DNA of 32,379 nucleotides from a virus, in the UHGV virus genome UHGV-0235014. One strand, given 5' to 3'. The translations under genes and the position numbers were made by a program. Within the stretch, counting starts at the first letter, position 1; each line of letters starts with the position of its first letter. Under the pieces are notes generated by a model. That model saw nothing but the letters and a program-made list of their open reading frames with translations, was not told where the DNA came from and ran no database searches. Positions 1,082 through 32,188 of the stretch are shown here, in pieces.

Positions 1082-2434
<1,353 letters not shown>

Positions 2435-10488: not shown

Positions 10489-10763
10489 CCATGTAGGCAT
10501 TACAAAGCCTATACCTTAATGATCACGATATTGAAGTAATGGACCGCCAAACGAAGAGAGATATCCTATCACATAACAAATCGTTGCAGGAGAACTGCAA
10601 ATTATAAATTAGCGAAGATCATGCAATGGAAAAAAATGAATGTTCGAACTGATAAAGAATTAATGTCTTCAGTTAAGAAAGAGGACGTTTCTCATTTAAA
10701 GAAAATTAAGCGATGCAATGAGTACCATTTCAAAAAGCCGGGTGTTAAACCCGACCTGAATAA

Positions 10764-11297
10764 TCATTCCAGCGGTTCTACTGGATCTGTCTTTGCTCGT
10801 GATGCGAATTGAATGAGCGCCAAAAGAGCCGAACGCATTTTTACATACTCTCTGCTTTTTACAACCTCTGACATATGCTCAGTGACATTAATATTGGCTG
10901 AGCAATACCCTTCCTTTGTTGGAACCGATATTTCCACTTTCATACCTTGATCTATCAGGCCACCCAAAATTCGCAGAGGCTCTGGTTCGATCAAAGCAGA
11001 TACGCGGTTTTTGTCTACGGGTTGAAAGCAGAGTGATGATCCATCATAACGGATTAGAACTCCACTCCGATCAGGACGCATCTCTGGTCCTATATCCAGA
11101 ATTCGCCATCCGCAATACCAAGTGCGGCAAACAGAAGGGCGTTCATCATAAATTGCACATCCTCCCTGATGTTTAAGGTGCTGGCATGGGATGTCAGCCA
11201 ACTTTTTTAACGTTGGCTGTTCAATTCGTAGCGAAGTGCAGCACACAGAGCATGAACCGCACTTTCTGTTTTTGATTAGTAATTTTTCTAAACTCAT
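10764..11297 (-). CDS. YkgJ/UPF0153-family Cys-rich putative metal-binding protein (CxxCxxCC)
   Basis: Minus strand, start ATG 11297 with GGGAGA SD 6 nt upstream; CGSCSVCC ... GGCAIYDERPSVCRTWYCGW motifs; antisense to flanking late genes. Confidence 0.65.
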   Translation of the reverse strand: MSLEKLLIKNRKCGSCSVCCTSLRIEQPTLKKLADIPCQHLKHQGGCAIYDERPSVCRTWYCGWRILDIGPEMRPDRSGVLIRYDGSSLCFQPVDKNRVSALIEPEPLRILGGLIDQGMKVEISVPTKEGYCSANINVTEHMSEVVKSREYVKMRSALLALIQFASRAKTDPVEPLE

Positions 11298-18398: not shown

Positions 18399-19817
18399 AT
18401 GCCGATTCAGCAACTTCCGCTTATGAAAGGTGTCGGCAAAGACTTTCGAAACGCCGACTATATCGACTATCTGCCAGTAAATATGTTGGCTACACCCAAA
18501 GAAATCCTTAACAGCAGCGGATATCTTCGCTCATTCCCGGGCATTGCAAAACGTTCTGATGTGAACGGTGTATCTCGAGGCGTCGAGTACAACATGGCGC
18601 AGAATGCTGTTTATCGCGTGTGTGGTGGCAAGCTGTACAAAGGAGAAAGTGAAGTCGGTGATGTTGCCGGAAGTGGTCGCGTATCAATGGCGCATGGTCG
18701 GACATCACAGGCGGTAGGCGTTAATGGTCAACTTTTCGAGTATCGCTATGATGGCACGGTTAAAACCGTCTCAAACTGGCCTGCAGACAGCGGATTTACG
18801 CAGTATGAATTAGGTTCGGTTCGTGACATTACTCGCTTACGTGGGCGTTATGCGTGGTCAAAAGACGGTACTGATTCATGGTTTATCACTGATCTTGAAG
18901 ACGAATCGCATCCTGACCGCTACAGCGCACAATATCGGGCAGAATCACAGCCTGACGGCATCATCGGCATCGGAACATGGCGAGACTTCATCGTCTGCTT
19001 TGGCTCATCGACGATTGAATATTTCTCCCTGACTGGTGCAACCACAGTTGGTGCTGCTTTGTATGTCGCACAGCCATCGCTGATGGTGCAGAAAGGCATT
19101 GCCGGGACTTACTGCAAAACGCCGTTTGCTGATTCGTATGCGTTCATCAGCAATCCGGCAACAGGTGCGCCGTCTGTGTACATCATCGGTTCCGGTCAGG
19201 TGTCACCAATCGCCAGCGCGAGCATTGAGAAAATCCTCCGCTCCTACACTGCTGATGAACTGGCTGATGGTGTGATGGAATCGCTGCGATTTGATGCTCA
19301 TGAGTTGCTGATTATCCACCTTCCGCGCCATGTTCTCGTGTACGACGCATCTTCAAGCGCCAATGGTCCGCAATGGTGTGTGCTGAAAACAGGCCTGTAT
19401 GACGATGTGTACCGCGCTATCGACTTCATTTACGAAGGCAATCAGATAACGTGCGGCGATAAGCTGGAATCGGTGACCGGGAAATTGCAGTTCGATATCA
19501 GCAGCCAGTACGACAAGCAGCAGGAACATATTTTATATTCTCCTTTAATAAAGGCAGATAACGCTTTAATAAATGACCTTGAATTAGAAACATCGGGCGG
19601 CGTGTGTGATAGAATAGATAAAATATTTATATCAGCCACTACAGATGGAATTAGTTACGGTCGTGAGCAAATGGTCGTATTACAAAAACCATTTGTATAT
19701 GACAATCGCGTTTTATGGCGAAAAGTTGGTCGAGTTAGACGCCTCATTGGATTTAAATTCAGAGTTATTGCAAAAGGTCCTGTTACATTATCAGGCCTTT
19801 CTATTCGTGTAACATAA
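18399..19817 (+). CDS. tail hub protein (P22 gp10-like)
   Basis: 472 aa, same length class as P22 gp10, synteny; last ~100 codons are AT-rich. Confidence 0.8.
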   Translation: MPIQQLPLMKGVGKDFRNADYIDYLPVNMLATPKEILNSSGYLRSFPGIAKRSDVNGVSRGVEYNMAQNAVYRVCGGKLYKGESEVGDVAGSGRVSMAHGRTSQAVGVNGQLFEYRYDGTVKTVSNWPADSGFTQYELGSVRDITRLRGRYAWSKDGTDSWFITDLEDESHPDRYSAQYRAESQPDGIIGIGTWRDFIVCFGSSTIEYFSLTGATTVGAALYVAQPSLMVQKGIAGTYCKTPFADSYAFISNPATGAPSVYIIGSGQVSPIASASIEKILRSYTADELADGVMESLRFDAHELLIIHLPRHVLVYDASSSANGPQWCVLKTGLYDDVYRAIDFIYEGNQITCGDKLESVTGKLQFDISSQYDKQQEHILYSPLIKADNALINDLELETSGGVCDRIDKIFISATTDGISYGREQMVVLQKPFVYDNRVLWRKVGRVRRLIGFKFRVIAKGPVTLSGLSIRVT

Positions 19818-19838
19818 ATCGAAACTAAAGGAGTAGAT

Positions 19839-20384
19839 ATGTTGAGTGAAAACGCAAAAGATATTCCTGGATATGAAGGTTTATATGCCGTAACAGAGGA
19901 TGGGCGAGTATATTCTCACTCACGTGTTGTTAAAGCTGCGCATGGCAGCACGCAACTCAGAAAGGGGCGGTGGCTAAAACAACACGAGAATAATAAAGGT
20001 TATCTATATTTGCCACTTAGTGTTGATGGAGTTAAAGTAAAATGGCTTGTGCATAGGCTTGTCGCTCTTGCTTTCGTCCCCAATCCAGAAGGCAAGCCGT
20101 TCATAAATCACATAGATAACAACCGAAAAAATAATAATGCTTCTAATTTAGAGTGGTGTACTCAAAAGGAGAATATGAAGCATTGCTCATCTCAAGGCAG
20201 GGTGAAGTTTCCGGCTTTAAAAGGAGAAAATAATCCAATTTCAAAGCTATCATATGAGCAAGTAATAGAAATAAAGAAATCAAAGGGAGTTAATCAAAGA
20301 GAGCTTGCTAAAAAATACTGTGTCAGTCAGACGGTGATTCACAATATCCAGTCTGGTAAATCGTGGAGGCATGTTAATGGCTGA
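19839..20384 (+). CDS. HNH homing endonuclease (NUMOD4 + HNH_3 + C-terminal HTH)
   Basis: 181 aa; [18 protein letters not shown] (NUMOD4), [22 protein letters not shown] (HNH), C-terminal HTH; AT-rich; inserted between gp10 and gp26. Confidence 0.85.
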
Positions 20385-21078
20385 TTCGAATCTCAATGTG
20401 CCGGTAATCATCCAGGCTACACGACTCGATACATCAATCCTTCCACGCAATATATTCAGCCAGTCTTACCTGCTGTATGTCATTAATCAGGGGGCTGATG
20501 TCGGCGCAATTGCCGGGAAGGCAAATCAGGCTGGTCAGGGCGCTTACGATGCCCAGGTAAAAAACGATGAACAGGATGTCGAACTGGCTGATCACGACGC
20601 AAGAATCACCGCAAACACAAAAGCGATAAATCTACTTGAGGTCAGGTTAACAACTGCCGAAGGGAAGATAGTCGTACTGCGTAGCGATGTTGATTACTTG
20701 CTGGATGAGGTTATCGATATTCAGGCGCATCTGGTCACTGTTGACCAAAGACTGGATGAGGTAGAAAACGATGTCTCTGGCATTAAGAGTGATTACGTAT
20801 CGAAAACCGTAACCGAATTGCAGTCTCTTGAGTCACCGCTGGATGTAAAAACATCATATTCAGTTGATGGAATTCAGGTTGTTGGAGCAAGAAATACCGG
20901 ATGGACTGCAGCCACAGGTACACCTCTTCTTGGCTCATTCAACGCTAACCAGTCATACACAGTCGGCACTACGTACACACAATCCGAAGTCGCAGCCCTC
21001 GCTACAGGTTTGCAGCAGGCGCGGCAGCGTATTCTGGCGCTTGAAACGGCACTTAGATTACATGGGCTGATTGACTGA
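20377..21078 (+). CDS. tail needle protein (P22 gp26-like)
   Basis: [68 protein letters not shown]... matches gp26 N-terminal domain and trimeric coiled coil. Confidence 0.8.
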
Positions 21079-22240: not shown

Positions 22241-23590
22241 ATGGCTACGTGGCAACAGGGTATTAATTCTGGTGGTTTTCTGGCTGGCATCGGTACGCAA
22301 AATGAGAATGCGCCAAAGGCAAGCGACATTAACGCAACGCTTGGTCTGATCCGCGAAAACAATGAATTGGCTCGATCAGGTGCAAATAACGTTGGTCTGA
22401 CCGCGTTACGTGGTCTGGCTGGAGTTGCTGATATTTACAATCAGGAACAGCAACAGAAAGCGATTAGTGCGTTCAATAAGGTTCACGCTGATGCATGGGC
22501 TTCTGGTGATCCATCGGGACTATTTAAGTTTGCCAAGGAAAATCCAGCGTTTGTTGCGCAGGCACAACAGGCGTTTTCCGGTCTTAATGAGCAGCAACGC
22601 AACGATATGGGCGATTTAGCCATGAGGGCTAACGTCGCTCTTTCTCAGGGACCGGAAGCCTACAGTAAATTCATTACTGACAACAAGGACAGGTTAAATC
22701 GCGTGGGGGCGAATGCTGACTGGATGATTCAGACAGGTATCCAGAATCCAGAGCAGCTATCACACATGTTGACTACTATGTCTCTCGGTGCGCTTGGACC
22801 AGAAAAGGCGTTTGCTGTTCAGGACAAGATGGTTGGTCGCCAGCAGGAGCAGCAAAGAATTAACGAAACCATTCGCAATAATGACATGACGAATGCGAGG
22901 GCTATTAGGGGGCAGGATCTTTCCTATAAGGCTCAAATGGCAAGACTGAATCACGACAAGTATGTGTTTAAGCAGTCACAGGCGGCCCTTGAAAGAGCAG
23001 GACAACTTCAGGATATGGATGTTTTGTCTCTTAACTCACAGATAGCAGCGACGGGAATTGATCCGCTAACCGGTAAAGCTGCAACGTCAGCCAGAATGTC
23101 TCAGGCTAAGAGATGGCTTGATGGCAACAATAATTACAACAATGCGTTGATTACTGGTGAGCGAGGGATAGAGAAAATAGATTCTTTGCTTGGTAAGAAG
23201 GAGCTTGAAGGTATCGGTCGCTTCGAAGGAAGAAATATAGATGGCTTCACAAGTGCTGAAGGGCTTGCAAACCGTAATGCGATAGAAGAATTAAAGTCGG
23301 GTGCGTTTGTCCAGAACGTGCAGACTATGCGAGGTATGGGTAGCCTCTCCAATGCTGAAGGACAAAAACTGGAAAACCTTATCGCGAAACTCGATATAAC
23401 ACAGCCTGAAGAGGTCGTCAGAAAACAGTTATCTGAAATCCGATCGCAATATTCTGTATTTCAAAAGGTTGCAGCAAGGGAGGCTGAATCAATGGGATAT
23501 AGTTCATCAGGTTATGACACATATGTTAGTGAGCGAAAATCAGGAAGCGACAGCAATAAGTCCGGTTTCTCGTCTTTATGGGGTGATTAA
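22241..23590 (+). CDS. ejection (E) protein, P22 gp20-like
   Basis: 449 aa; synteny. Confidence 0.75.
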
Positions 23591-25464
23591 TGGCTAAAGC
23601 ATGGAAAGATGTTATCGCTTCTCCACAGTATCAGGCGTTAACTGAAGAACAGAAAGCACAGGCTCAAGCGCAATATTTTGATGAGGTTGTTGCCCCTAAG
23701 GCTGGTGACAAATGGGCTGAAGCAAGAGATCAGTTTTATGCAGCATACCCTCCACCTCAGCAGCAGAAAGAAGAACCATCATTGATGCAACAAGCTGGTG
23801 ATTGGCTCACAGGTGGTCAAAGTGCAGGGCAAATTGCAGAACAGGCTGGTCGTGGTCTGGTAAACATACCATTTGACGTATTGCAGGGTGGCGCAAGTCT
23901 GATTAATGCAATCAGTCAGGGGCTTGGTGGACCCAAGGTTTTGGATGATGTTTATCGTCCAGTAGACAGACCGACAGACCCATACGCACAAGCCGGTGAA
24001 ACAATTGGTGGGTATTTAGTTCCAGGAGTTGGAACGGCAGGAAGCATGGCTATTGGATCACTGGCAGAGGCCGCAAATCAGAAAGGCGATTTCGCACAAA
24101 ATGCAGCTAAAAATGCCGGAGTTAACCTTGCCGCTCAGGGTGTTCTTTCCGCAGCAGCAAAGGGAATAGGGCGTGGAATAACGGCTATAAAAGGTGATAT
24201 TGCGCCAGAAGTGGCGAAGAAAATTGCCACATCAGAATCGATGGGCGTGACACCAATGACATCTGATGTTATCCCGCCGAAAAATGCTTTCACTCGCGGC
24301 CTTACTCAGGATGCCGAGGGGGCTTTGCTCGGGACAGGCTCAAAGCGAGCGGAGCAATATGCAACGCGTAGTAAGCTGGTAAGCAATTATTTTGACCGTT
24401 TTGGTGAGTACAACCCTGATGATGTGGTGAAATCTCTGACCACCACGTTAAGGGGGCGGAAGGATGCTGCTGGCGCTGTTATCAATGACGTCACCAATAA
24501 AATGGGTAATGCCGCAGTTGATACCACAAATACCATGAATGCTCTGAATACAGCGATCGCAAGACAGGAACGGCTTGGGACTTCAGCCAATCAAAGCCTG
24601 CTTACATCCTTGCGTAACCTACGTGAAGAATTAGCAAACCCTGCAACTGATTTGGATGTTACGTTTGATCTCTTGCGTCAGCACAGAACAGCATTTAGAT
24701 CTAATGTTCAGGGAGATGCTATGGTCTTCCCCAACCAGGCAAAAGCAGCTACCAATATGGTAGAGAATGCAATGTCAAAAGACCTTCGTAACGCAGTTGC
24801 TAAAAACCTCGGTGCATCAGACGCAGCAAAATACCTTAAAGCAAATTCCGATTATGCAAACGTTTATAATAAGGTGCTTAATAAAAACATTGCCAACAAG
24901 CTCAACAAGGCAAGCAGTGAAGCCAGTCCTGAACTTATAAATACCGTTGTATTAAGCAGAAAACCATCTGACGTGAAACGAATCTGGAGCGCACTGGATG
25001 ATAAAGGGAAAGATGCTATGCGTGCAGCTTACGTCAGCAAAATAGCGGAAAAGGCCGGTGACTCTCCAGCCAAGTTCATCACTGAAGTTAATAAGCTGAA
25101 ATCTCAGTCAGGAGGTGAAATTTACAACACTATTTTTTCTGGAAAGCACATGAAAGAACTTGATGCTCTTAATGAAGTTCTACAGCAAACAGCAAGGTCA
25201 GACACCGCAAATGTAGTAACTCAGACGGGGCAATCGCAAGCCAACAGGATAAGGACGATTGGCGCAACTGCGACTCTTGGCGTATCAATGGGGCTTGAGG
25301 CTGGTTTCGGTGCAATGATGCGCTTGTATGAGTCCAAAGCAGCAAGGAATGCGCTCTTACGTCTGGCAAACACTAAAGCTGGAACGCCAGCCTATGAAAG
25401 AGCGCTGAATAACGCCGCAAATGCCATCAGACCAATACTTGCCAATGATGCAACTGATCGCTAA
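23590..25464 (+). CDS. ejection (E) protein, P22 gp16-like
   Basis: 624 aa; synteny; last gene of structural operon before strand switch. Confidence 0.75.
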
Positions 25465-25485
25465 GGGTTGATGTCATGGATGTTG

Positions 25486-26124
25486 TTAATTGCGAATGGA
25501 ATCGCGGAACTCTTTGCTTGATAGAAAAGGATCTGTTCTCCTTAACTCATCATAGTTTTTATTAAACTTTCTTGCTTCACCTGGGTATCTGTTGAACAAA
25601 ACATTGCAGAAAAAAGAGAGCAATAACTCACATATGAATGCTAATACCCTGAAAAATAAAGGTATAAAAAGAAGGGAAGGTTCATTGAAGTCTCTATTCC
25701 AAACAAAATAGACAATCATCCCGACATACCAAATTGATATCCCTATACTGATGATTGTTCCAACAGAGGTAACTACGATCCCGATTAAGTCGGACAGTCT
25801 GTTTGCCAGTAACTCATTTGAGTATCTTGCAATCATATACCGCCAACATTTTGCAATATCATCCTGATCTGTAGAGTCTTCTGGAATAGCTAGGCTTCTA
25901 CATATTGAAGTAGCTCTTTTTTTCTCAACTCTTTTTGAGATCCATCCATTAAAGAGATACATCAACACCTGCGTTGCTATTCCTGCACCAAGTGATATCA
26001 AAGACATCCCCAAAAATCTCCATCCTGGAGATAGTGACTGGTACTGCCAAACAAAAAAAATTAAAAAACCCAATGAGCCTATGACATAGGCTGATGTATC
26101 GCTATATATATCTATTTTTTTCAT
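25486..26124 (-). CDS. polytopic inner-membrane protein; candidate superinfection exclusion (SieA-position) protein
   Basis: Minus strand, ATG 26124 with AAGGAG SD; ~5 predicted TM segments; very AT-rich; downstream of and co-oriented with a repressor gene, between gp16 and the ant module where P22 carries sieA. Confidence 0.7.
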   Translation of the reverse strand: MKKIDIYSDTSAYVIGSLGFLIFFVWQYQSLSPGWRFLGMSLISLGAGIATQVLMYLFNGWISKRVEKKRATSICRSLAIPEDSTDQDDIAKCWRYMIARYSNELLANRLSDLIGIVVTSVGTIISIGISIWYVGMIVYFVWNRDFNEPSLLFIPLFFRVLAFICELLLSFFCNVLFNRYPGEARKFNKNYDELRRTDPFLSSKEFRDSIRN

Positions 26125-26188
26125 TGAGTAGCCACTCCTTAGTTTTGAGCAGAACACCGGATGATAATGTGTCGCTTCCTAAAGGATA

Positions 26189-26830
26189 TCAAAGCAACGG
26201 GATTTCAAGGTAAACTGCGGTTGCCAAAATACTAACATCTTCATTTCTAACAAGAATATTAGGATACATTGGGTTTAGGGATACTAAGTTTGTCTCTATT
26301 TCACCAATGTAAACCTGCTTGAAGCTCAATATTTGCTCTTTATCCAATGATGCTATTACATAATCTTTGCTTTTAGCTTTTACTAGAGGGCTGAACGTGA
26401 CAACTGATCCTCTGGGAAAGCTAATACCTGAACTTGTAGTCATAGCTTCACCTTCAATAGTCAATGCAAATGCAGAGTCACCAACATTGTATATTGCCGG
26501 ATGAAATCTAGACGATGAATGTTCACCTGTGTTTAGGTAATGCATAACTTCATCTAGTTTGAGGATTGGTATTTGCTTTACCAGAACGTCAGGCATGACG
26601 TTTTTTGTTCCAGGCCCCTGACCTTCACCCAGAGCTAACCACTCAGCCGTAGTGCCTAATGCGTTGGCTAATGCCTGCAATACACGAAGCCGTGGTTTAG
26701 CCTCACCACCCTCGTATGCAGCTATTTGACGTTGAACAACACCAGCTAATTTTGACAACTGCGCCTGCGTCATACCCCTGGACTGTCTTGCCAGAGATAC
26801 TCTTGATGGGAATTGATCGTCAAAATTCAT
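26189..26830 (-). CDS. CI/LexA-like repressor (HTH_XRE + S24-like domain with nucleophile Ser replaced by Ala)
   Basis: 213 aa; HTH MTQAQLSKLAGVVQRQIAAYEGG; C-domain aligns to 434/lambda cI but has GEAM in place of GDSM; Lys of FKQV retained. Confidence 0.8.
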   Translation of the reverse strand: MNFDDQFPSRVSLARQSRGMTQAQLSKLAGVVQRQIAAYEGGEAKPRLRVLQALANALGTTAEWLALGEGQGPGTKNVMPDVLVKQIPILKLDEVMHYLNTGEHSSSRFHPAIYNVGDSAFALTIEGEAMTTSSGISFPRGSVVTFSPLVKAKSKDYVIASLDKEQILSFKQVYIGEIETNLVSLNPMYPNILVRNEDVSILATAVYLEIPLL

Positions 26831-26861
26831 TAGTTCACCATAAAAAATTCATTGACTCATA

Positions 26862-26890
26862 CTGAGTGTGAGTGAATAATCAAACTACAA
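26862..26890 (+). promoter_or_regulatory. candidate promoter for arc-like/ant operon in divergent intergenic region
   Basis: TTGACT (26862..26867) - 17 nt - AATAAT; between divergent repressor and RHH genes; operator not resolved. Confidence 0.4.
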
Positions 26891-26929
26891 AAAGTGAGAT
26901 TATGAGTTTTTCAAAAACAGGAGTGCATA

Positions 26930-27103
26930 ATGACTGAAAAGATATCTTCCATCAAGCCGCGTCAGGTTCGTTTTACAGAAAAGGTTGATTCACATATCCG
27001 CGAATCAGCAAAAAGATGCCATAGGTCAATTCAGGCAGAGATAGCTTATCGAATGGAGTTATTGATGAAACTTGAGGCAAAGGGCGATGTTGTCATCCAA
27101 TAA
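26930..27103 (+). CDS. Arc-like ribbon-helix-helix protein (57 aa)
   Basis: ATG 26930 with CAGGAG SD; basic beta-strand PRQVRFTEKV then two helices typical of RHH; directly precedes antirepressor; short, not in ORF track. Confidence 0.6.
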   Translation: MTEKISSIKPRQVRFTEKVDSHIRESAKRCHRSIQAEIAYRMELLMKLEAKGDVVIQ

Positions 27104-27176
27104 AAATAGTGAAGCCCGGCAGTGCGCGAACACAAACCGGGCCTCTATGTCAGTAACCGTATGCAAGGAAACTAAC

Positions 27177-27803
27177 ATGAATATTGTAGCAAAATCAGAT
27201 TACAACTTCCACGGAGTTGAGTTGGTGCCCACCCGTGATATGCATGGTGTTTGGTTTACATCATCTAATATTGCATCTGCACTTAAATATGCAAATAGCC
27301 GTGCAGTAACAATGATTTATAACAAGTATAGCGATGAGTTTAGCGCCGGAATGACTCAGGTACTCGAAGTGAGTACCTCAGGAAATTATCGCAAAAAAGT
27401 GCGAGTTTTCTCACTACGCGGTGCCCACCTAATCGCGATGTTTGCTCGCACTCCGGTAGCCAAAGAGTTCCGCCGCTGGGTGCTGGATATTTTGGATCGG
27501 CAGGCAGAATGCTCACCGATTGCAAAACAGTTTACTGACGAAGAACTGGTTAATCTCTGCTACTTACAATTGTGGATGGAGAAGAGTCAACAAATGTGCA
27601 AACACATCTACCCAGGAATGAAGCAAATTGGTTCTGAGCTTTCAGGAAGAATTTACGATATTGCATATGAGACTCGCTATATGTCAGAAGAAACCAAGAA
27701 ATCACTTCTTCGTGAAATGAAGAATCTTGATACCAACAATTTTGTCGTAAAGAACGCTCAGCCAATGCTGACAAAACTGCGCGGCGAGGAATGGATTCAT
27801 TGA
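27177..27803 (+). CDS. antirepressor-like protein with N-terminal Bro-N domain
   Basis: 208 aa from ATG 27177 (AAGGA SD); YNFHGVELVPTRDMHGVWFTSSNIASALKY fits Bro-N pattern. Confidence 0.75.
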   Translation: MNIVAKSDYNFHGVELVPTRDMHGVWFTSSNIASALKYANSRAVTMIYNKYSDEFSAGMTQVLEVSTSGNYRKKVRVFSLRGAHLIAMFARTPVAKEFRRWVLDILDRQAECSPIAKQFTDEELVNLCYLQLWMEKSQQMCKHIYPGMKQIGSELSGRIYDIAYETRYMSEETKKSLLREMKNLDTNNFVVKNAQPMLTKLRGEEWIH

Positions 27804-27891
27804 TTGGTGCGCCGGACGGCGCAAAAAGAAAACCGCCAGTGTGCTGCTGGCGGCCTATGTCACACCCTTACTACCACATAAGGAATGCCTA

Positions 27892-28617
27892 ATGACTTTG
27901 AAGAATGTAGCAAACATCGGATCCGTTGTCACGGATAAAACCATTGACAGCCAAAGTCTTCTGATGATGGTTAATGAAGCTCGCAAGTTATGTGGAGAGC
28001 CATCAGTACGTAACAACAAATTCATCGAGAAAATTGAGGATGAATTGGAGGGCGAGACCTACACAAAAAGTGTAGGTCGGAAAAACGGGGCTGACATTGA
28101 TGTTATCTCCATGACTATCAAGCAGGCGCTTCGTGTTGCTGCTCGCGAATCTAAAGCAGTTCGCCGAACACTTGTAGACAAACTTGAAAGTATGCAAGAA
28201 GCGCACATTAAAAGCGGTAAATCGTCGAGTGGACTTGTTGAGTATCGCCAGGCACGAACATTGAAAATGACGGTTGAAGCTGTTACCAATCTGTTAGATT
28301 TGATGCCAAATCTTGCGCCGGAAGCAAAGCAGACTGCGGCAGCAAGCATAATCAACCCGATAGTTGGTTTTAATGCAATACCTCTTCCAGCAATAGAAGA
28401 GCATTACTACTCAGCAGGGGAGGTTGCAGAGCAGCTTGGAGTAACGGCAAACAAGATTGGTCGCATTGCTAACGCAAACAACCTCAAAACTGAGCAGTAC
28501 GGGAAGTTCTTCTTGGATAAATCTGCGCATTCAAGCAAACAGGTGGAAGCATTCCGCTACAATGCGGAGGGTGTTAAAGCACTACAACACCTGATTCATG
28601 GGAGCAATGTTGCATAA
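27892..28617 (+). CDS. hypothetical protein in ant operon (possible antirepressor/regulatory protein)
   Basis: 241 aa from ATG 27892 (AAGGA SD); not confidently recognised. Confidence 0.6.
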   Translation: MTLKNVANIGSVVTDKTIDSQSLLMMVNEARKLCGEPSVRNNKFIEKIEDELEGETYTKSVGRKNGADIDVISMTIKQALRVAARESKAVRRTLVDKLESMQEAHIKSGKSSSGLVEYRQARTLKMTVEAVTNLLDLMPNLAPEAKQTAAASIINPIVGFNAIPLPAIEEHYYSAGEVAEQLGVTANKIGRIANANNLKTEQYGKFFLDKSAHSSKQVEAFRYNAEGVKALQHLIHGSNVA

Positions 28618-28845: not shown

Positions 28846-28875
28846 AACCCGCTTAATTGCGGGTTTTTTCTTTTC
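28846..28875 (+). terminator. intrinsic terminator ending the ant operon
   Basis: AACCCGC-TTAATT-GCGGGTT followed by TTTTTTCTTTT; stop codon of the convergent mnt-like gene lies in the loop. Confidence 0.75.
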
Positions 28876-29110
28876 TAAGGATATCAGCCACAACTTCTTT
28901 TACTCGTTCCGAGATTAATGAGGCCAGCCTCTCTTCTTCATCACGATACCCGCTTACAGGTGATGGTTTGGAGAGTGATTCTTCCATCGTAGCCACAATT
29001 TCGGAATTGATAGACCTGTTATTCATTTTTGCACGTTGCTTAATCTTAGCGTGCAACTCGTGCGTAAGCCTCAAGTGGAACTGCGCCTCATCGTATTTGC
29101 TGTACATCAT
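28853..29110 (-). CDS. mnt: Mnt-like ribbon-helix-helix repressor
   Basis: 85 aa from ATG 29110 (GGTGAGG SD); ...NRSINSEIVATMEESLSKPSPVSGYRDEEERLA... closely parallels P22 Mnt (..NGRSMNSELLQIVQDALSKPSPVTGYRNDAERLA..). Confidence 0.7.
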   Translation of the reverse strand: MMYSKYDEAQFHLRLTHELHAKIKQRAKMNNRSINSEIVATMEESLSKPSPVSGYRDEEERLASLISERVKEVVADILRKEKTRN

Positions 29111-29242
29111 CAATGCCTCACCAAATGGGTGGAATGGCATCGTAAAACCTACTGTACAAATCAACAATCGTACCATTTCGGTATGCAACAAACACCAACC
29201 GTAGCCACGCTGCGGCGATTCCTTGTATCTGGAGCAAATTAA

Positions 29243-32188
29243 ATGACAGACATTACAGCCAATGTTGTGGTAAGCATGCCTTCGCAACTCTTCACTATGG
29301 CTCGTTCTTTTAAAGCGGTAGCCAATGGCAAAATTTATATCGGTAAAATTGACACTGACCCAGTAAATCCTGAAAACCAGATTCAGGTTTATGTGGAGAA
29401 TGAAGACGGTTCTCACGTTCCTGTTTCGCAACCAATAATCATTAACGCTGCTGGATATCCGGTATATAACGGACAGATTGCCAAATTCGTTACCGTGCAA
29501 GGCCATTCTATGGCTGTTTATGATGCGTATGGTGCACAGCAGTTCTATTTTCCCAATGTGCTGAAGTATGACCCTGATCAACTACGGCAGCAATTAGAAG
29601 ACCCAGATGGAGCGAATAAATACCCAAAACTTCAGATAGCAAGATGGAGAGACAGTTATGATGTAAGAGGTTGGGGGGCTATTGGTGATGGTGTTCATGA
29701 TGATACATCAGCTCTATCAGAATTACTTTCTGTTGCAACAGGTGGTGAAAAGATAGATGGGCGAGGGCTTACTTTTAAAGTATCAACTCTTCCAGATGTC
29801 AGTCGATTTAAAAATGCTCGTTTTTTATTTGAGAGAATACCGGGTCAGCCTCTTTTTTATGCTTCTGAAGATTTTATCCAGGGAGAGTTATTTAAAATTA
29901 CAGATACACCGTGGTACAACGCCTGGACGCAGGATAAAACGTTTGTATATGACAATGTCATCTATGCGCCTTTTATGGCTGGAGACCGCCATGGTGTAAA
30001 TAACCTCCATGTTGCATGGGTTCGCTCAGGAGATGACGGGAAGACCTGGACAACGCCGGAATGGCTTACAGATTTACATGAAAACTATCCCACAGTTAAC
30101 TATCACTGCATGAGTATGGGGGTTGTCAGAAATCGCCTTTTTGCTGTAATTGAGACGCGGACCGTGAGCGGAAATAAACTGCAGGTTGCAGAGTTGTGGG
30201 ATCGCCCAATGAGTCGCAGCCTTCGCGTTTATGGTGGTATAACGAAAGCAGCAAATCAGCAAGTCGCTTATATTCGCATTACTGATCACGGATTATTTGC
30301 TGGTGATTTTGTCAACTTCTCAAATTCTGGTGTTACAGGTGTTACCGGGAATATGACGGTGACTACTGTTATTGATAAAAATACTTTTACAGTTACGACG
30401 CAAAATACCCAGGATGTGGATCAGAATAACGAGGGTAGATACTGGAGTTTTGGTACATCATTTCACTCGTCACCATGGAGAAAAACCAGTCTTGGAACTA
30501 TTCCTTCTTTTGTTGACGGAAGCACTCCTGTTACTGAGATTCACAGTTTTGCGACGATTAGCGATAACAGTTTTGCTGTTGGCTACCATAATGGTGATAT
30601 TGATCCACGCGAGCTTGGGATACTCTATTTCTCTGATGCTTTCGGTTCTCCTGGTAGCTTTGTTCGCAGACGCATACCTGTAGAATATGAGGCGAATGCA
30701 TCTGAGCCATGTGTAAAATATTATGATGGCATTCTGTATCTGACGACCAGGGGGACATTAAGTACTCAACCCGGTAGTTCATTGCACAGAAGCTCTGATT
30801 TAGGTACATCATGGAATTCTCTTCGCTTCCCAAATAATGTTCATCACTCAAACCTTCCTTTTGCCAAAGTTGGCGATGAGCTGATTATTTTTGGCAGTGA
30901 GCGCGCATTTGGTGAGTGGGAAGGAGGAGAACCTGATAACCGTTATGCAGGAAATTATCCAAGAACATTTATGACCAGAGTTAACGTCAATGAGTGGAGT
31001 CTGGATAATGTAGAGTGGGTTAATGTTACTGATCAGATTTATCAGGGCGGAATAGTTAACTCTGCGGTTGGTGTTGGTTCAGTTTGTATCAAAGACAACT
31101 GGCTGTACTACATTTTCGGTGGGGAAGACTTTCTAAACCCATGGAGCATAGGGGATAACAACAGAAAATATCCTTATGTTCACGATGGTCACCCGGCTGA
31201 TTTGTATTGTTTCAGGGTGAAAATTAAACAGGAAGAATTTGTTTCAAGGGATTTTGTCTACGGAGCCACTCCTAACAGAACGCTTCCTACTTTTATGTCG
31301 ACGTCAGGCGTGAGGACGGTTCCTGTACCCGTTGATTTCACAGATGATGTTGCCGTCCAGTCACTGACTGTCCATGCAGGTACATCAGGACAAGTTCGCG
31401 CGGAAGTCAAACTTGAGGGTAATTACGCCATTATTGCGAAGAAAGTACCGTCTGATGATGTTACCGCTCAGAGATTAATCGTTAGCGGCGGTGAAACAAC
31501 GTCTTCAGCAGATGGTGCAATGATAACGTTGCATGGTTCCGGAAGCAGTACTCCACGTCGCGCGGTATATAACGCACTCGAACATCTTTTTGAGAACGGA
31601 GATGTTAAACCTTATCTTGATAATGTAAATGCTCTTGGTGGTCCGGGAAACAGGTTCTCGACAGTTTATCTTGGCTCCAATCCTGTGGTTACCAGTGACG
31701 GAACATTAAAGACAGAGCCGGTCTCTCCTGACGAAGCATTGCTGGATGCCTGGGGTGACGTCAGGTATATCGCTTATAAATGGCTGAACGCTGTCGCTAT
31801 AAAGGGGGAAGAAGGGGCGAGGATACATCATGGTGTAATCGCGCAGCAACTTCGTGATGTTCTTATTTCTCACGGACTCATGGAAGAAGAAAGCACAACA
31901 TGCCGCTATGCGTTTCTTTGCTATGACGATTATCCCGCAGTATATGATGACGTCATTACTGGCCAAAGGGAAATGCCGCTGACTGATAATGACGGGAGCA
32001 TCATTGTTGATGAGGATGATAATCCAGTGATGGTAATGGAAGACATCATTGAGCGCGTTGAAATAACGCCAGCAGGATCTAGATGGGGGGTCAGACCTGA
32101 TCTCTTATTCTATATCGAGGCGGCATGGCAGCGCAGAGAAATAGAAAGAATAAAAGCTAGGTTAGACTTAATAGAAGGGAAGCACTAA
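29243..32188 (+). CDS. tailspike protein: P22 gp9-like head-binding domain + endosialidase (endo-N-acylneuraminidase) + C-terminal intramolecular chaperone (S74-like) domain
   Basis: 981 aa; N-terminal ~115 aa conserved tailspike head-binding domain; Asp-boxes SGDDGKTW (30026..30049) and SSDLGTSW (30791..30814); C-terminal region with Ser-x4-Lys (VVTSDGTLK, Ser at 31694..31696) typical of auto-cleaving chaperone domains. Confidence 0.85.

What the first reader, a model, noticed from the sequence alone, without database searches (positions are those of the whole stretch)
25486..26124. SieA-position polytopic membrane protein co-oriented with a repressor: candidate superinfection-exclusion determinant
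A very AT-rich gene for a ~5-TM membrane protein lies 64 bp downstream of, and in the same orientation as, the immI-type repressor gene, antisense to the structural operon. This is the slot where P22 carries sieA, which blocks DNA entry of superinfecting phage. The protein itself is not recognisable to me.
Basis: inference. Interest (0 to 1): 0.6.

Follow-up and report, generated by a model that had tools for sequence, protein, structure and literature searches.

The report
Known type B SieA exclusion gene

Summary
The ORF is real: window 25486..26124 (-), 212 aa, ATG preceded by AAGGAG, 36.3% GC against 47.0% for the window. It lies 64 bp downstream of a co-oriented HTH/S24-like repressor and converges on the gene 16 homologue. 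This is the slot that sieA occupies in P22.

The protein is recognisable. It matches PHROG 7745 "SieA-like" (E 6.5e-21) and P22 SieA (BLASTP 8e-25; profile comparison 99.6%). It carries the SieA motif FxRYPxEAxxFNK at residues 177-189.

It is 100% identical to E. coli HS ECHS_RS01600, the only SieA homologue in the gene 16-to-tailspike interval of the HS prophage, where Leavitt et al. 2024 place HS1 sieA (EcHS_A0321). They classified that gene as "type B SieA" and cloned it with 106 bp of upstream DNA. A single copy fully excluded P22, L, MG40, MG178 and LP7.

The hydropathy scan and an AlphaFold model give four transmembrane helices, not about five.

Verdict: interpretation supported, feature already known, low interest.

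Side observations:
- RefSeq still labels the gene "hypothetical protein" in all 21 of 5426 complete E. coli genomes that carry it.
- SieA belongs to a much wider family (PF26849). In all six loci fetched, members sit in chromosomal, non-phage neighbourhoods of other Proteobacteria.

The parts
25486..26124 (-). sieA (type B): 212-aa inner-membrane superinfection-exclusion protein
   Evidence: ORF. 100% identical to E. coli HS ECHS_RS01600. phrog_7745 E 6.5e-21. BLASTP to P22 SieA E 8e-25. hhalign 99.6%. Motif FNRYPGEARKFNK at residues 177-189. Four TM helices. Published exclusion phenotype for the identical HS1 gene.
26135..26140 (-). Shine-Dalgarno AAGGAG, 10 nt upstream of the ATG
   Evidence: Read directly. 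Invariant in the four aligned prophages.
26164..26192 (-). Promoter-like site TTGATA-17-CATTAT (9/12). The -35 overlaps the repressor stop codon. The site lies inside the 106 bp that sufficed for function in the published clone.
   Evidence: Consensus scan; the scan found fewer sites than in shuffles, so this is weak on its own. The -10 CATTAT is the first conserved block of the sieA cassette in prophages with a different upstream gene. The 106-bp upstream clone is from PMC10883804. Promoter activity is inferred, not shown.
26189..26830 (-). Upstream co-oriented HTH_3 + Peptidase_S24-like repressor in the immI position. Context only; not required for sieA.
   Evidence: Pfam. 98% identical DNA in phage JEP4, which lacks sieA. 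Other E. coli prophages have sieA next to a truncated Arc-family gene instead.
23590..25464 (+). Gene 16 homologue (ejection / DNA-transfer protein), convergent with sieA. Its protein class is one of the two genetic targets of SieA.
   Evidence: phrog_770 E 2e-276. 74% identical to P22 gp16. Escape mutations in P22 gp16 are reported in PMC10883804.
22241..23590 (+). Gene 20 homologue (ejection protein), the second genetic target class of SieA
   Evidence: Pfam Inj_translocase E 5.6e-109. The N-terminal 232 aa are 84% identical to P22 gp20; the C-terminal half is unrelated.

Best explanation
The gene is a type B sieA carried by a P22-like (Lederbergvirus-type) prophage. The prophage expresses a small four-helix inner-membrane protein. 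Most of its soluble mass, including the conserved FxRYPxEAxxFNK motif, is predicted to face the cytoplasm. The protein prevents superinfecting P22-like phages from delivering DNA across the inner membrane. It most likely does this by interfering with assembly or function of the gp20/gp16 ejection-protein conduit.

Shown by sequence here: homology to P22 SieA, synteny, and identity to HS1 SieA.
Shown by published experiment on the identical protein: it is sufficient for exclusion of P22, L, MG40, MG178, LP7 and ejection-protein hybrid phages.
Shown only for P22 (type A) SieA: inner-membrane location, block of K+ release and DNA entry, and escape mutations in gp16/gp20.
Inferred: a direct SieA-conduit contact, expression from its own promoter within 106 bp upstream, and possible read-through from the repressor gene.
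For: - Identity to E. coli HS ECHS_RS01600 over the gene and 176 bp upstream.
- HS1 sieA (EcHS_A0321), cloned with 106 bp upstream into Salmonella galK, fully excluded P22-like phages. The HK620-hybrid phage plated at about 10% (PMC10883804; locus tag also in Table S2).
- Homology to P22 SieA.
- Motif present.
- Same slot between gene 16 and the tailspike as in P22.
- Four predicted TM helices, with K/R-rich segments 60-110 and 177-212.
- Mechanistic data for P22 SieA.
Against: - Nothing found here contradicts the identification.
- Inner-membrane location, K+ release and escape mutants were determined for type A, not type B.
- Exclusion by HS1 SieA was tested in Salmonella against Salmonella phages and P22 hybrids, not in the native E. 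coli host of this window. That host's prophage has a K1 endosialidase tailspike.
- How SieA proteins only 24-28% identical act on ejection proteins 22-26% identical is unexplained; the authors say so themselves.
- The promoter call is a weak consensus match.
- The mapping of RefSeq tag ECHS_RS01600 to the old tag EcHS_A0321 rests on position and uniqueness in the 16-to-9 interval, not on a cross-reference table.
Confidence: 0.93

Rival explanations
1. Same protein and same phenotype, but an indirect mechanism. SieA does not touch gp16/gp20. Instead it masks or sequesters a host inner-membrane factor (YajC was proposed) that the distal end of the ejection conduit must engage.
For: - Leavitt et al. 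offer this as an explicit alternative.
- It would explain how very divergent SieA types exclude phages with very divergent ejection proteins.
- SieA belongs to a wide family of chromosomal inner-membrane proteins in non-phage contexts, which fits a conserved host partner.
- The most conserved residues lie in segments predicted to be cytoplasmic, not in the short periplasmic loops where a conduit would arrive.
Against: - Escape mutations map to gp16 and gp20, and partial escape tracks with HK620 gp16. A direct interaction explains this most simply.
- High multiplicity of infection partly overcomes exclusion, which both models accommodate.
- No partner was tested here.
Confidence: 0.25
2. The gene is a silent or decaying remnant in this particular prophage and confers no exclusion in its native host.
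For: - The promoter match is weak.
- Related prophages show decay nearby: an IS3 insertion in HS and truncated Arc-family pseudogenes elsewhere.
- The gene is rare, in 21 of 5426 complete E. coli genomes.
Against: - The ORF is intact and identical to the functional HS allele, including all 106 bp upstream that sufficed for expression.
- The SD is strong.
- 19 of the 21 copies are at least 99% identical.
Confidence: 0.04
3. An unrelated membrane function (transporter subunit, holin-like or abortive-infection pore) that merely occupies the sieA slot.
For: A marginal NCBIfam hit to an ABC permease model, E 0.041.
Against: - That hit scores 14 bits against a cut-off of 120.
- There are no Pfam or PADLOC hits and no fold or PDB sequence match.
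- Homology to SieA is strong and a phenotype is published.
- P22 SieA has little or no effect on cell growth.
Confidence: 0.01

Closest known systems
HS1 SieA (type B SieA), E. coli HS prophage HS1, locus EcHS_A0321 / ECHS_RS01600 / WP_000717773.1 (Leavitt et al. 2024, mBio, PMC10883804)
   Same: The amino-acid sequence is 100% identical. The DNA is identical over the gene and at least 176 bp upstream, and the flanking gene 16 homologue and repressor are the same.
   Different: The surrounding prophage is a mosaic relative, not HS1 itself. It is 99.2% identical over 23763..28482, but has no IS3 insertion, different upstream tail genes, and an endosialidase tailspike in place of the HS one.
P22 SieA (type A), DAA00996.1
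   Same: - Homologous over the three core TM helices and the cytoplasmic motif FxRYPxEAxxFNK.
- Same slot and orientation between gene 16 and the immI/tailspike region.
- Indistinguishable exclusion spectrum in the published tests.
   Different: - Only 28% identical.
- The window protein has a 30-residue N-terminal extension with an extra TM helix.
- It also has a roughly 16-residue longer C-terminal tail (YDELR..D.LLSSKEFRDSI) that is nearly invariant among type B proteins.
- In P22, sieA follows mnt/orf59a and a terminator. Here it follows an HTH/S24-like repressor with no predicted terminator between them.
Other injection-blocking membrane exclusion proteins: HK97 gp15, Lactococcus Tuc2009 Sie2009, Streptococcus TP-J34 Ltp (as cited in PMC10883804)
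   Same: They share the logic: a prophage-encoded membrane protein blocks DNA entry by related phages, and escape comes through changes in the conduit or tape-measure proteins.
   Different: No sequence relationship was detected here. They act on long-tailed phages. Ltp is a surface lipoprotein rather than a polytopic inner-membrane protein (the Ltp point is also from the abstract).
PF26849 family: about 170-aa three-TM proteins annotated 'hypothetical protein' in Pseudomonas, Azotobacter, Variovorax, Polaromonas, Gallionella, Methylococcales, Woeseiaceae and others
   Same: Profile-profile probability is 99.6%. They share the NRxSDxxG and GRYPGE/QA motifs and the core three-TM layout. They carry the same precomputed Pfam accession as the type B SieA proteins.
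   Different: In all six loci fetched, they sit among housekeeping-type genes with no phage genes within about 6 kb. Their function is unknown. They lack the type B N-terminal TM helix. The final motif is R-K rather than F-N-K.

Membership tests
SieA (P22-like phage superinfection exclusion protein A) | Detectable sequence homology to P22 SieA | tested here: met
   phrog_7745 E 6.5e-21. tblastn to annotated sieA in 38 phage records. BLASTP E 8e-25. hhalign 99.6%.
SieA (P22-like phage superinfection exclusion protein A) | Conserved cytoplasmic motif FxRYPxEAxxFNK near the C-terminus (defined in PMC10883804) | tested here: met
   FNRYPGEARKFNK at residues 177-189; P22 has FGRYPGEANGFNK at 145-157. 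The motif positions F, R, Y, P, E, A, F, N and K are all invariant in the 11 aligned type B proteins.
SieA (P22-like phage superinfection exclusion protein A) | Located in a P22-like prophage between the gene 16 and gene 9 (tailspike) homologues | tested here: met
   Gene 16 homologue at 23590..25464 and tailspike at 29243..32188. The window also holds gene 20 (Inj_translocase), N, CII, O and DnaB-type genes.
SieA (P22-like phage superinfection exclusion protein A) | Polytopic membrane protein with the three core TM helices | tested here: met
   Kyte-Doolittle peaks at 37-59, 110-142 and 149-176; the extra N-terminal segment (~12-28) did not reach the 1.6 threshold. The AF2 helices span these segments, mean pLDDT 75. 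TMHMM itself was not run; the paper reports it.
SieA (P22-like phage superinfection exclusion protein A) | Inner-membrane localisation | not testable with these tools
   Shown by fractionation for FLAG-tagged P22 SieA only.
SieA (P22-like phage superinfection exclusion protein A) | Sufficient, alone and in single copy, to exclude P22-like phages by blocking DNA injection | not testable with these tools
   Published for the identical HS1 protein: plating below 1e4 PFU/mL against 5e10 on the sieA-free host. K+ release and lysogenisation assays were done only for P22 SieA.
Type B SieA subclass | About 30-residue N-terminal extension relative to type A, containing an extra TM helix; clusters with HS1 SieA | tested here: met
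   Window residue 44 aligns with P22 residue 14. Extra helix at 6-25. 100% identical to the type B exemplar.
   Pfam has none. The best NCBIfam hit is 14.2 bits against a cut-off of 120. Foldseek against PDB and BFVD finds nothing at E <= 0.001.

The most novel reading that the evidence does not exclude
SieA is not an invention confined to P22-like prophages. It is a phage-captured branch of a widespread chromosomal inner-membrane protein family (PF26849; at least 175 clusters at 50% identity) found across Gamma- and Betaproteobacteria in non-phage neighbourhoods. The family shares motifs that are predicted cytoplasmic in SieA (NRxSDxxG and GRYPGE/QA). If these chromosomal members also block phage DNA entry, they would be an unrecognised, very common single-gene defence. 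If instead they bind a conserved host inner-membrane machine, they would point to the real target of SieA and favour the indirect mechanism. The homology and the chromosomal contexts are shown here for six loci. Any function is speculation.
Probability: 0.25. Interest if true: 0.55.

Novelty: already known. Interest (0 to 1): 0.1.

Why it matters
For the finding as given, very little is new. The gene, its class (type B SieA) and its exclusion phenotype were published in 2024 for an identical allele.

Two practical points remain.
- Annotation lags the literature. All 21 complete E. coli genomes that carry the gene label it "hypothetical protein". PADLOC has no model for it.
- The mechanism is still open. 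It is not understood how SieA types 24-28% identical block conduits built from ejection proteins 22-26% identical. The existence of a large chromosomal sister family gives a new comparative handle on that question.

Tried and rejected
- The local Pfam-A copy gave no hit for the protein, although homologues carry a precomputed PF26849.1 tag. That accession is apparently newer than the local copy, and I could not read its name.
- PADLOC gave no hit.
- NCBIfam gave only a noise-level ABC-permease hit, which I rejected.
- The AlphaFold model (pLDDT 75, pTM 0.57) searched with Foldseek against BFVD and PDB gave nothing at E <= 0.001. Even P22 SieA was not recovered by fold, so the model is useful only for helix boundaries.
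- A profile search of PDB sequences gave one chance-level hit, E 0.15.
- No inverted repeats (candidate operators or terminators) were found in 25400..27000.
- No terminator-like site lies between the repressor and sieA. The terminator-like hits lie inside coding sequence and have poor T-tracts, so I disregarded them.
- The first attempt to scan genomes with a 33-sequence alignment failed for lack of a conserved block. A narrower alignment worked.
- A September 2026 bioRxiv preprint on the P22 translocation channel mentions SieA but is not held and could not be read.
- I first noted that both catalytic residues of the S24 domain were lost in the upstream repressor. On re-alignment with LexA and lambda CI from memory, only the Ser is replaced (Ala) and the Lys is retained. 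The correction is in notebook entry 3.
- I considered whether the window is E. coli HS itself and rejected that. It is a mosaic with a different tailspike and no IS3.

Full report
**1. The observation**

The ORF listing shows an ORF at 25486..26157 (-). That ATG is preceded by AAGGAG at 26140..26135, read. RefSeq uses the same start for the identical gene in E. coli HS, and most full-length homologues start in register with it, several with the same MKK.

The gene is 36.3% GC. The window as a whole is 47.0% and the adjacent gene 16 homologue is 46.9%.

The gene lies 64 bp downstream of a co-oriented gene at 26189..26830 (-). It converges on the late structural operon; the gene 16 homologue ends at 25464. 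So the coordinates, orientation, spacing and AT-richness are all confirmed.

Two details need correcting.
- Hydropathy and an AlphaFold2 model give four transmembrane helices, not about five. The model was built on 11 type B sequences and has mean pLDDT 75, with helices at 6-25, 33-78, 87-101, 105-143, 149-177, 181-197 and 204-211.
- The upstream repressor is an HTH_3 + Peptidase_S24-like protein, not an Mnt-type ribbon-helix-helix protein.

**2. What it is**

The protein is recognisable by homology.
- It hits PHROG 7745, "superinfection exclusion SieA-like", at E 6.5e-21.
- tblastn against 50,697 phage records finds only the annotated sieA genes of P22 and its close Salmonella relatives, at 27.7% identity and E about 1e-11.
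- Direct BLASTP to P22 SieA gives 28% identity over 148 residues, E 8e-25.
- A profile of type B proteins against P22 SieA gives hhalign probability 99.6%.
- The motif FxRYPxEAxxFNK, singled out by Leavitt et al., is present as FNRYPGEARKFNK at residues 177-189.

Synteny matches P22: gene 7, gene 20, gene 16, then sieA on the opposite strand, then immI, then the tailspike. In the window, gene 20 is at 22241..23590 (Pfam Inj_translocase). Gene 16 is at 23590..25464 (phrog_770; 74% identical to P22 gp16). Then come sieA, a repressor with divergent Arc-like and antirepressor genes, an Arc/Mnt-family gene, and the tailspike at 29243..32188.

**3. It is already characterised**

Megablast against complete E. 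coli genomes gives 100% identity to E. coli HS over window 25300..26300. The translated protein equals ECHS_RS01600 / WP_000717773.1 residue for residue.

Leavitt et al. 2024 (mBio 15:e02169-23, PMC10883804) describe this gene. [quoted passage not shown] They give the locus tag as EcHS_A0321 in CP000802.
- They amplified it with 106 bp of upstream DNA and inserted it in single copy at galK of Salmonella.
- P22, L, MG40, MG178 and LP7 were fully excluded.
- P22 hybrids carrying L, Sf6 or CUS-3 ejection proteins were also excluded.
- The HK620 hybrid plated at about 10%. The locus tag is also listed in Table S2.

The window is identical to HS over the gene and 176 bp upstream, so the tested fragment is present here unchanged.

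One caveat applies. I matched the RefSeq tag to the old tag by position and by its being the only SieA homologue between genes 16 and 9, not from a cross-reference table.

**4. How it works**

For P22 (type A) SieA the same paper shows the following.
- The protein is exclusively in the inner membrane.
- It abolishes phage-induced K+ release and lowers lysogenisation 1e5-fold.
- It acts only on P22-like phages.

The favoured model is interference with assembly or function of the gp20/gp16 trans-envelope conduit at the inner membrane. The stated alternative is occlusion of a host inner-membrane factor such as YajC.

My topology reading is an inference and the positive-inside rule.
- The N-terminus (MKK) is inside.
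- TM0 spans about 6-25.
- A short, highly conserved periplasmic loop follows at 26-36 (W26, Y28, L31, W35, R36 and F37 are invariant).
- TM1 spans 37-59.
- A K/R-rich cytoplasmic segment covers 60-110.
- TM2 spans 111-143.
- A short periplasmic loop follows at 143-149.
- TM3 spans 150-176.
- The cytoplasmic tail carries the motif.

Most conserved residues are therefore cytoplasmic, which is at least compatible with the indirect model.

Expression:
- A TTGATA-17-CATTAT site lies at 26192..26164, within the 106 bp that sufficed experimentally.
- Its -10 is the first block conserved in prophages that have a different upstream gene.
- No terminator-like site separates sieA from the repressor, so read-through is also possible.
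- These expression points are inferences.

**5. Context and independence from the repressor**

Phage JEP4 has the same repressor (98% DNA identity) but no sieA between it and gene 16. Conversely, E. coli 980-2, UTAK-1 and the 39.9-kb circular element pB1.H1.18.c6 carry a sieA at least 98.7% identical in DNA, downstream of a truncated Arc-family pseudogene. So sieA is a self-contained, AT-rich moron cassette. Its co-orientation with this repressor is incidental rather than a functional unit.

The gene is present in 21 of 5426 complete E. coli genomes and is always annotated "hypothetical protein". No sequenced phage in the collection carries a type B allele. That agrees with the paper.

**6. 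Beyond the finding**

A profile of type B SieA was searched against 1.84 billion representative proteins. It found 175 clusters at E <= 1e-3 and 31 at E <= 1e-10.
- Most are 160-180 aa.
- They share S-x-E-L-x-x-N-R-x-S-D-x-x-G, W153, C173 and G-R-Y-P-G-E/Q-A.
- Profile-profile probability to type B SieA is 99.6%.

A genome scan recovered six loci, in Pseudomonas, Variovorax, Polaromonas, Woeseiaceae, Ectothiorhodospiraceae and a gammaproteobacterial MAG. I examined the neighbours of five of them with Pfam. They are ordinary chromosomal genes: LysR and AraC regulators, oxidoreductases, a symporter, GST, GNAT, a SurA-like PPIase, isocitrate dehydrogenase, a TonB-dependent receptor and a PLP enzyme. 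No phage genes were seen.

A second database search shows the same precomputed Pfam accession (PF26849.1) on these proteins and on the type B SieA proteins. All of them are named "hypothetical protein".

This widens the picture given in the 2024 paper, which described three types, all in P22-like prophages of enterobacteria. The sample is small, I did not run PHROGs or PADLOC on those loci, and their function is unknown.

**7. Verdict**

However, the element is an exact copy of an experimentally characterised gene. Novelty: already known. Interest: low. What remains of interest is the annotation gap and the unexplored chromosomal sister family.

Noticed in passing
window 26189..26830 (-), compared with 1483..2115 (-): The prophage carries two HTH_3 + Peptidase_S24 repressors: the immC C2-like one next to N, CII, O and DnaB, and a second in the immI position upstream of sieA (28% identical to each other). 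In the second, the nucleophile Ser of the S24 motif (GDSM) is Ala (GEAM), while the Lys (FK) is retained. It probably cannot self-cleave. It faces a divergent operon of a 57-aa RHH protein and two antirepressor-like genes, and a separate Arc/Mnt-family gene lies at 28853..29140 (-).
   Followed up: partly
window 29243..32188 (+): The tailspike is a 981-aa endosialidase: a P22 head-binding domain followed by endosialidase N-terminal extension, beta-propeller and beta-barrel, catalytic tail-spike domain, and Peptidase_S74 chaperone. The prophage is therefore a K1-capsule-specific, CUS-3-like relative of HS1 and not HS1 itself. The published HS1 SieA excluded a P22 hybrid carrying CUS-3 ejection proteins.
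   Followed up: partly
loci L007-L012 (Pseudomonas sp. CR3202, Variovorax, Polaromonas, Woeseiaceae, Ectothiorhodospiraceae, gammaproteobacterial MAG): SieA belongs to a much wider family (precomputed PF26849.1; 175 clusters at 50% identity at E <= 1e-3) of roughly 170-aa three-TM proteins. In the five loci whose neighbours I examined (all but L008), they lie in ordinary chromosomal, non-phage neighbourhoods. They share NRxSDxxG and GRYPGE/QA motifs with SieA (hhalign 99.6%). A few representatives are fused into proteins of 260-620 aa.
   Followed up: partly
window 23590..25464 (+) and 22241..23590 (+): The resident gp16 is 74% identical to P22 gp16. It keeps the Gly at the SieA-escape position G532 but has Ala where P22 has P546 (the escape allele is P546S). 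The resident gp20 is homologous to P22 gp20 only over the first 232 residues. The C-terminal half, where the P22 gp20 escape changes map, is unrelated. Whether this phage is sensitive to its own SieA is unknown.
   Followed up: no
window 26125..26192; loci L004-L006: The sieA cassette boundary is sharp. Identity to prophages with a different upstream gene (a truncated Arc-family pseudogene) begins at the -10-like CATTAT, about 46 bp upstream of the ATG. Phage JEP4 has the window's repressor but no sieA at all.
   Followed up: yes
window protein residues 191-212 (DNA 25486..25554): Type B SieA proteins share a nearly invariant C-terminal tail (YDELR..D.LLSSKEFRDSI) that P22 SieA lacks. It is predicted helical and cytoplasmic. 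The text of the 2024 paper that I read does not mention it.
   Followed up: no
NZ_CP146561.1 and NZ_CP146567.1 (L006): Two 39.9-kb circular 'plasmids' of hospital-wastewater E. coli are complete P22-like phage genomes carrying type B sieA. They are presumably excised or episomal phage DNA that was assembled as a plasmid.
   Followed up: no
all 21 E. coli genomes with the gene, e.g. NC_009800.1 325462-326100: RefSeq/PGAP annotates this experimentally characterised gene as 'hypothetical protein' everywhere. PADLOC v2.0.0 has no model for it, and the local Pfam-A copy lacks PF26849.
   Followed up: yes
window 19501..20500 and 10501..11000: Two further low-GC segments (about 39% against 47% overall) lie within the late region. 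They suggest other mosaic or moron insertions. I did not examine them.
   Followed up: no
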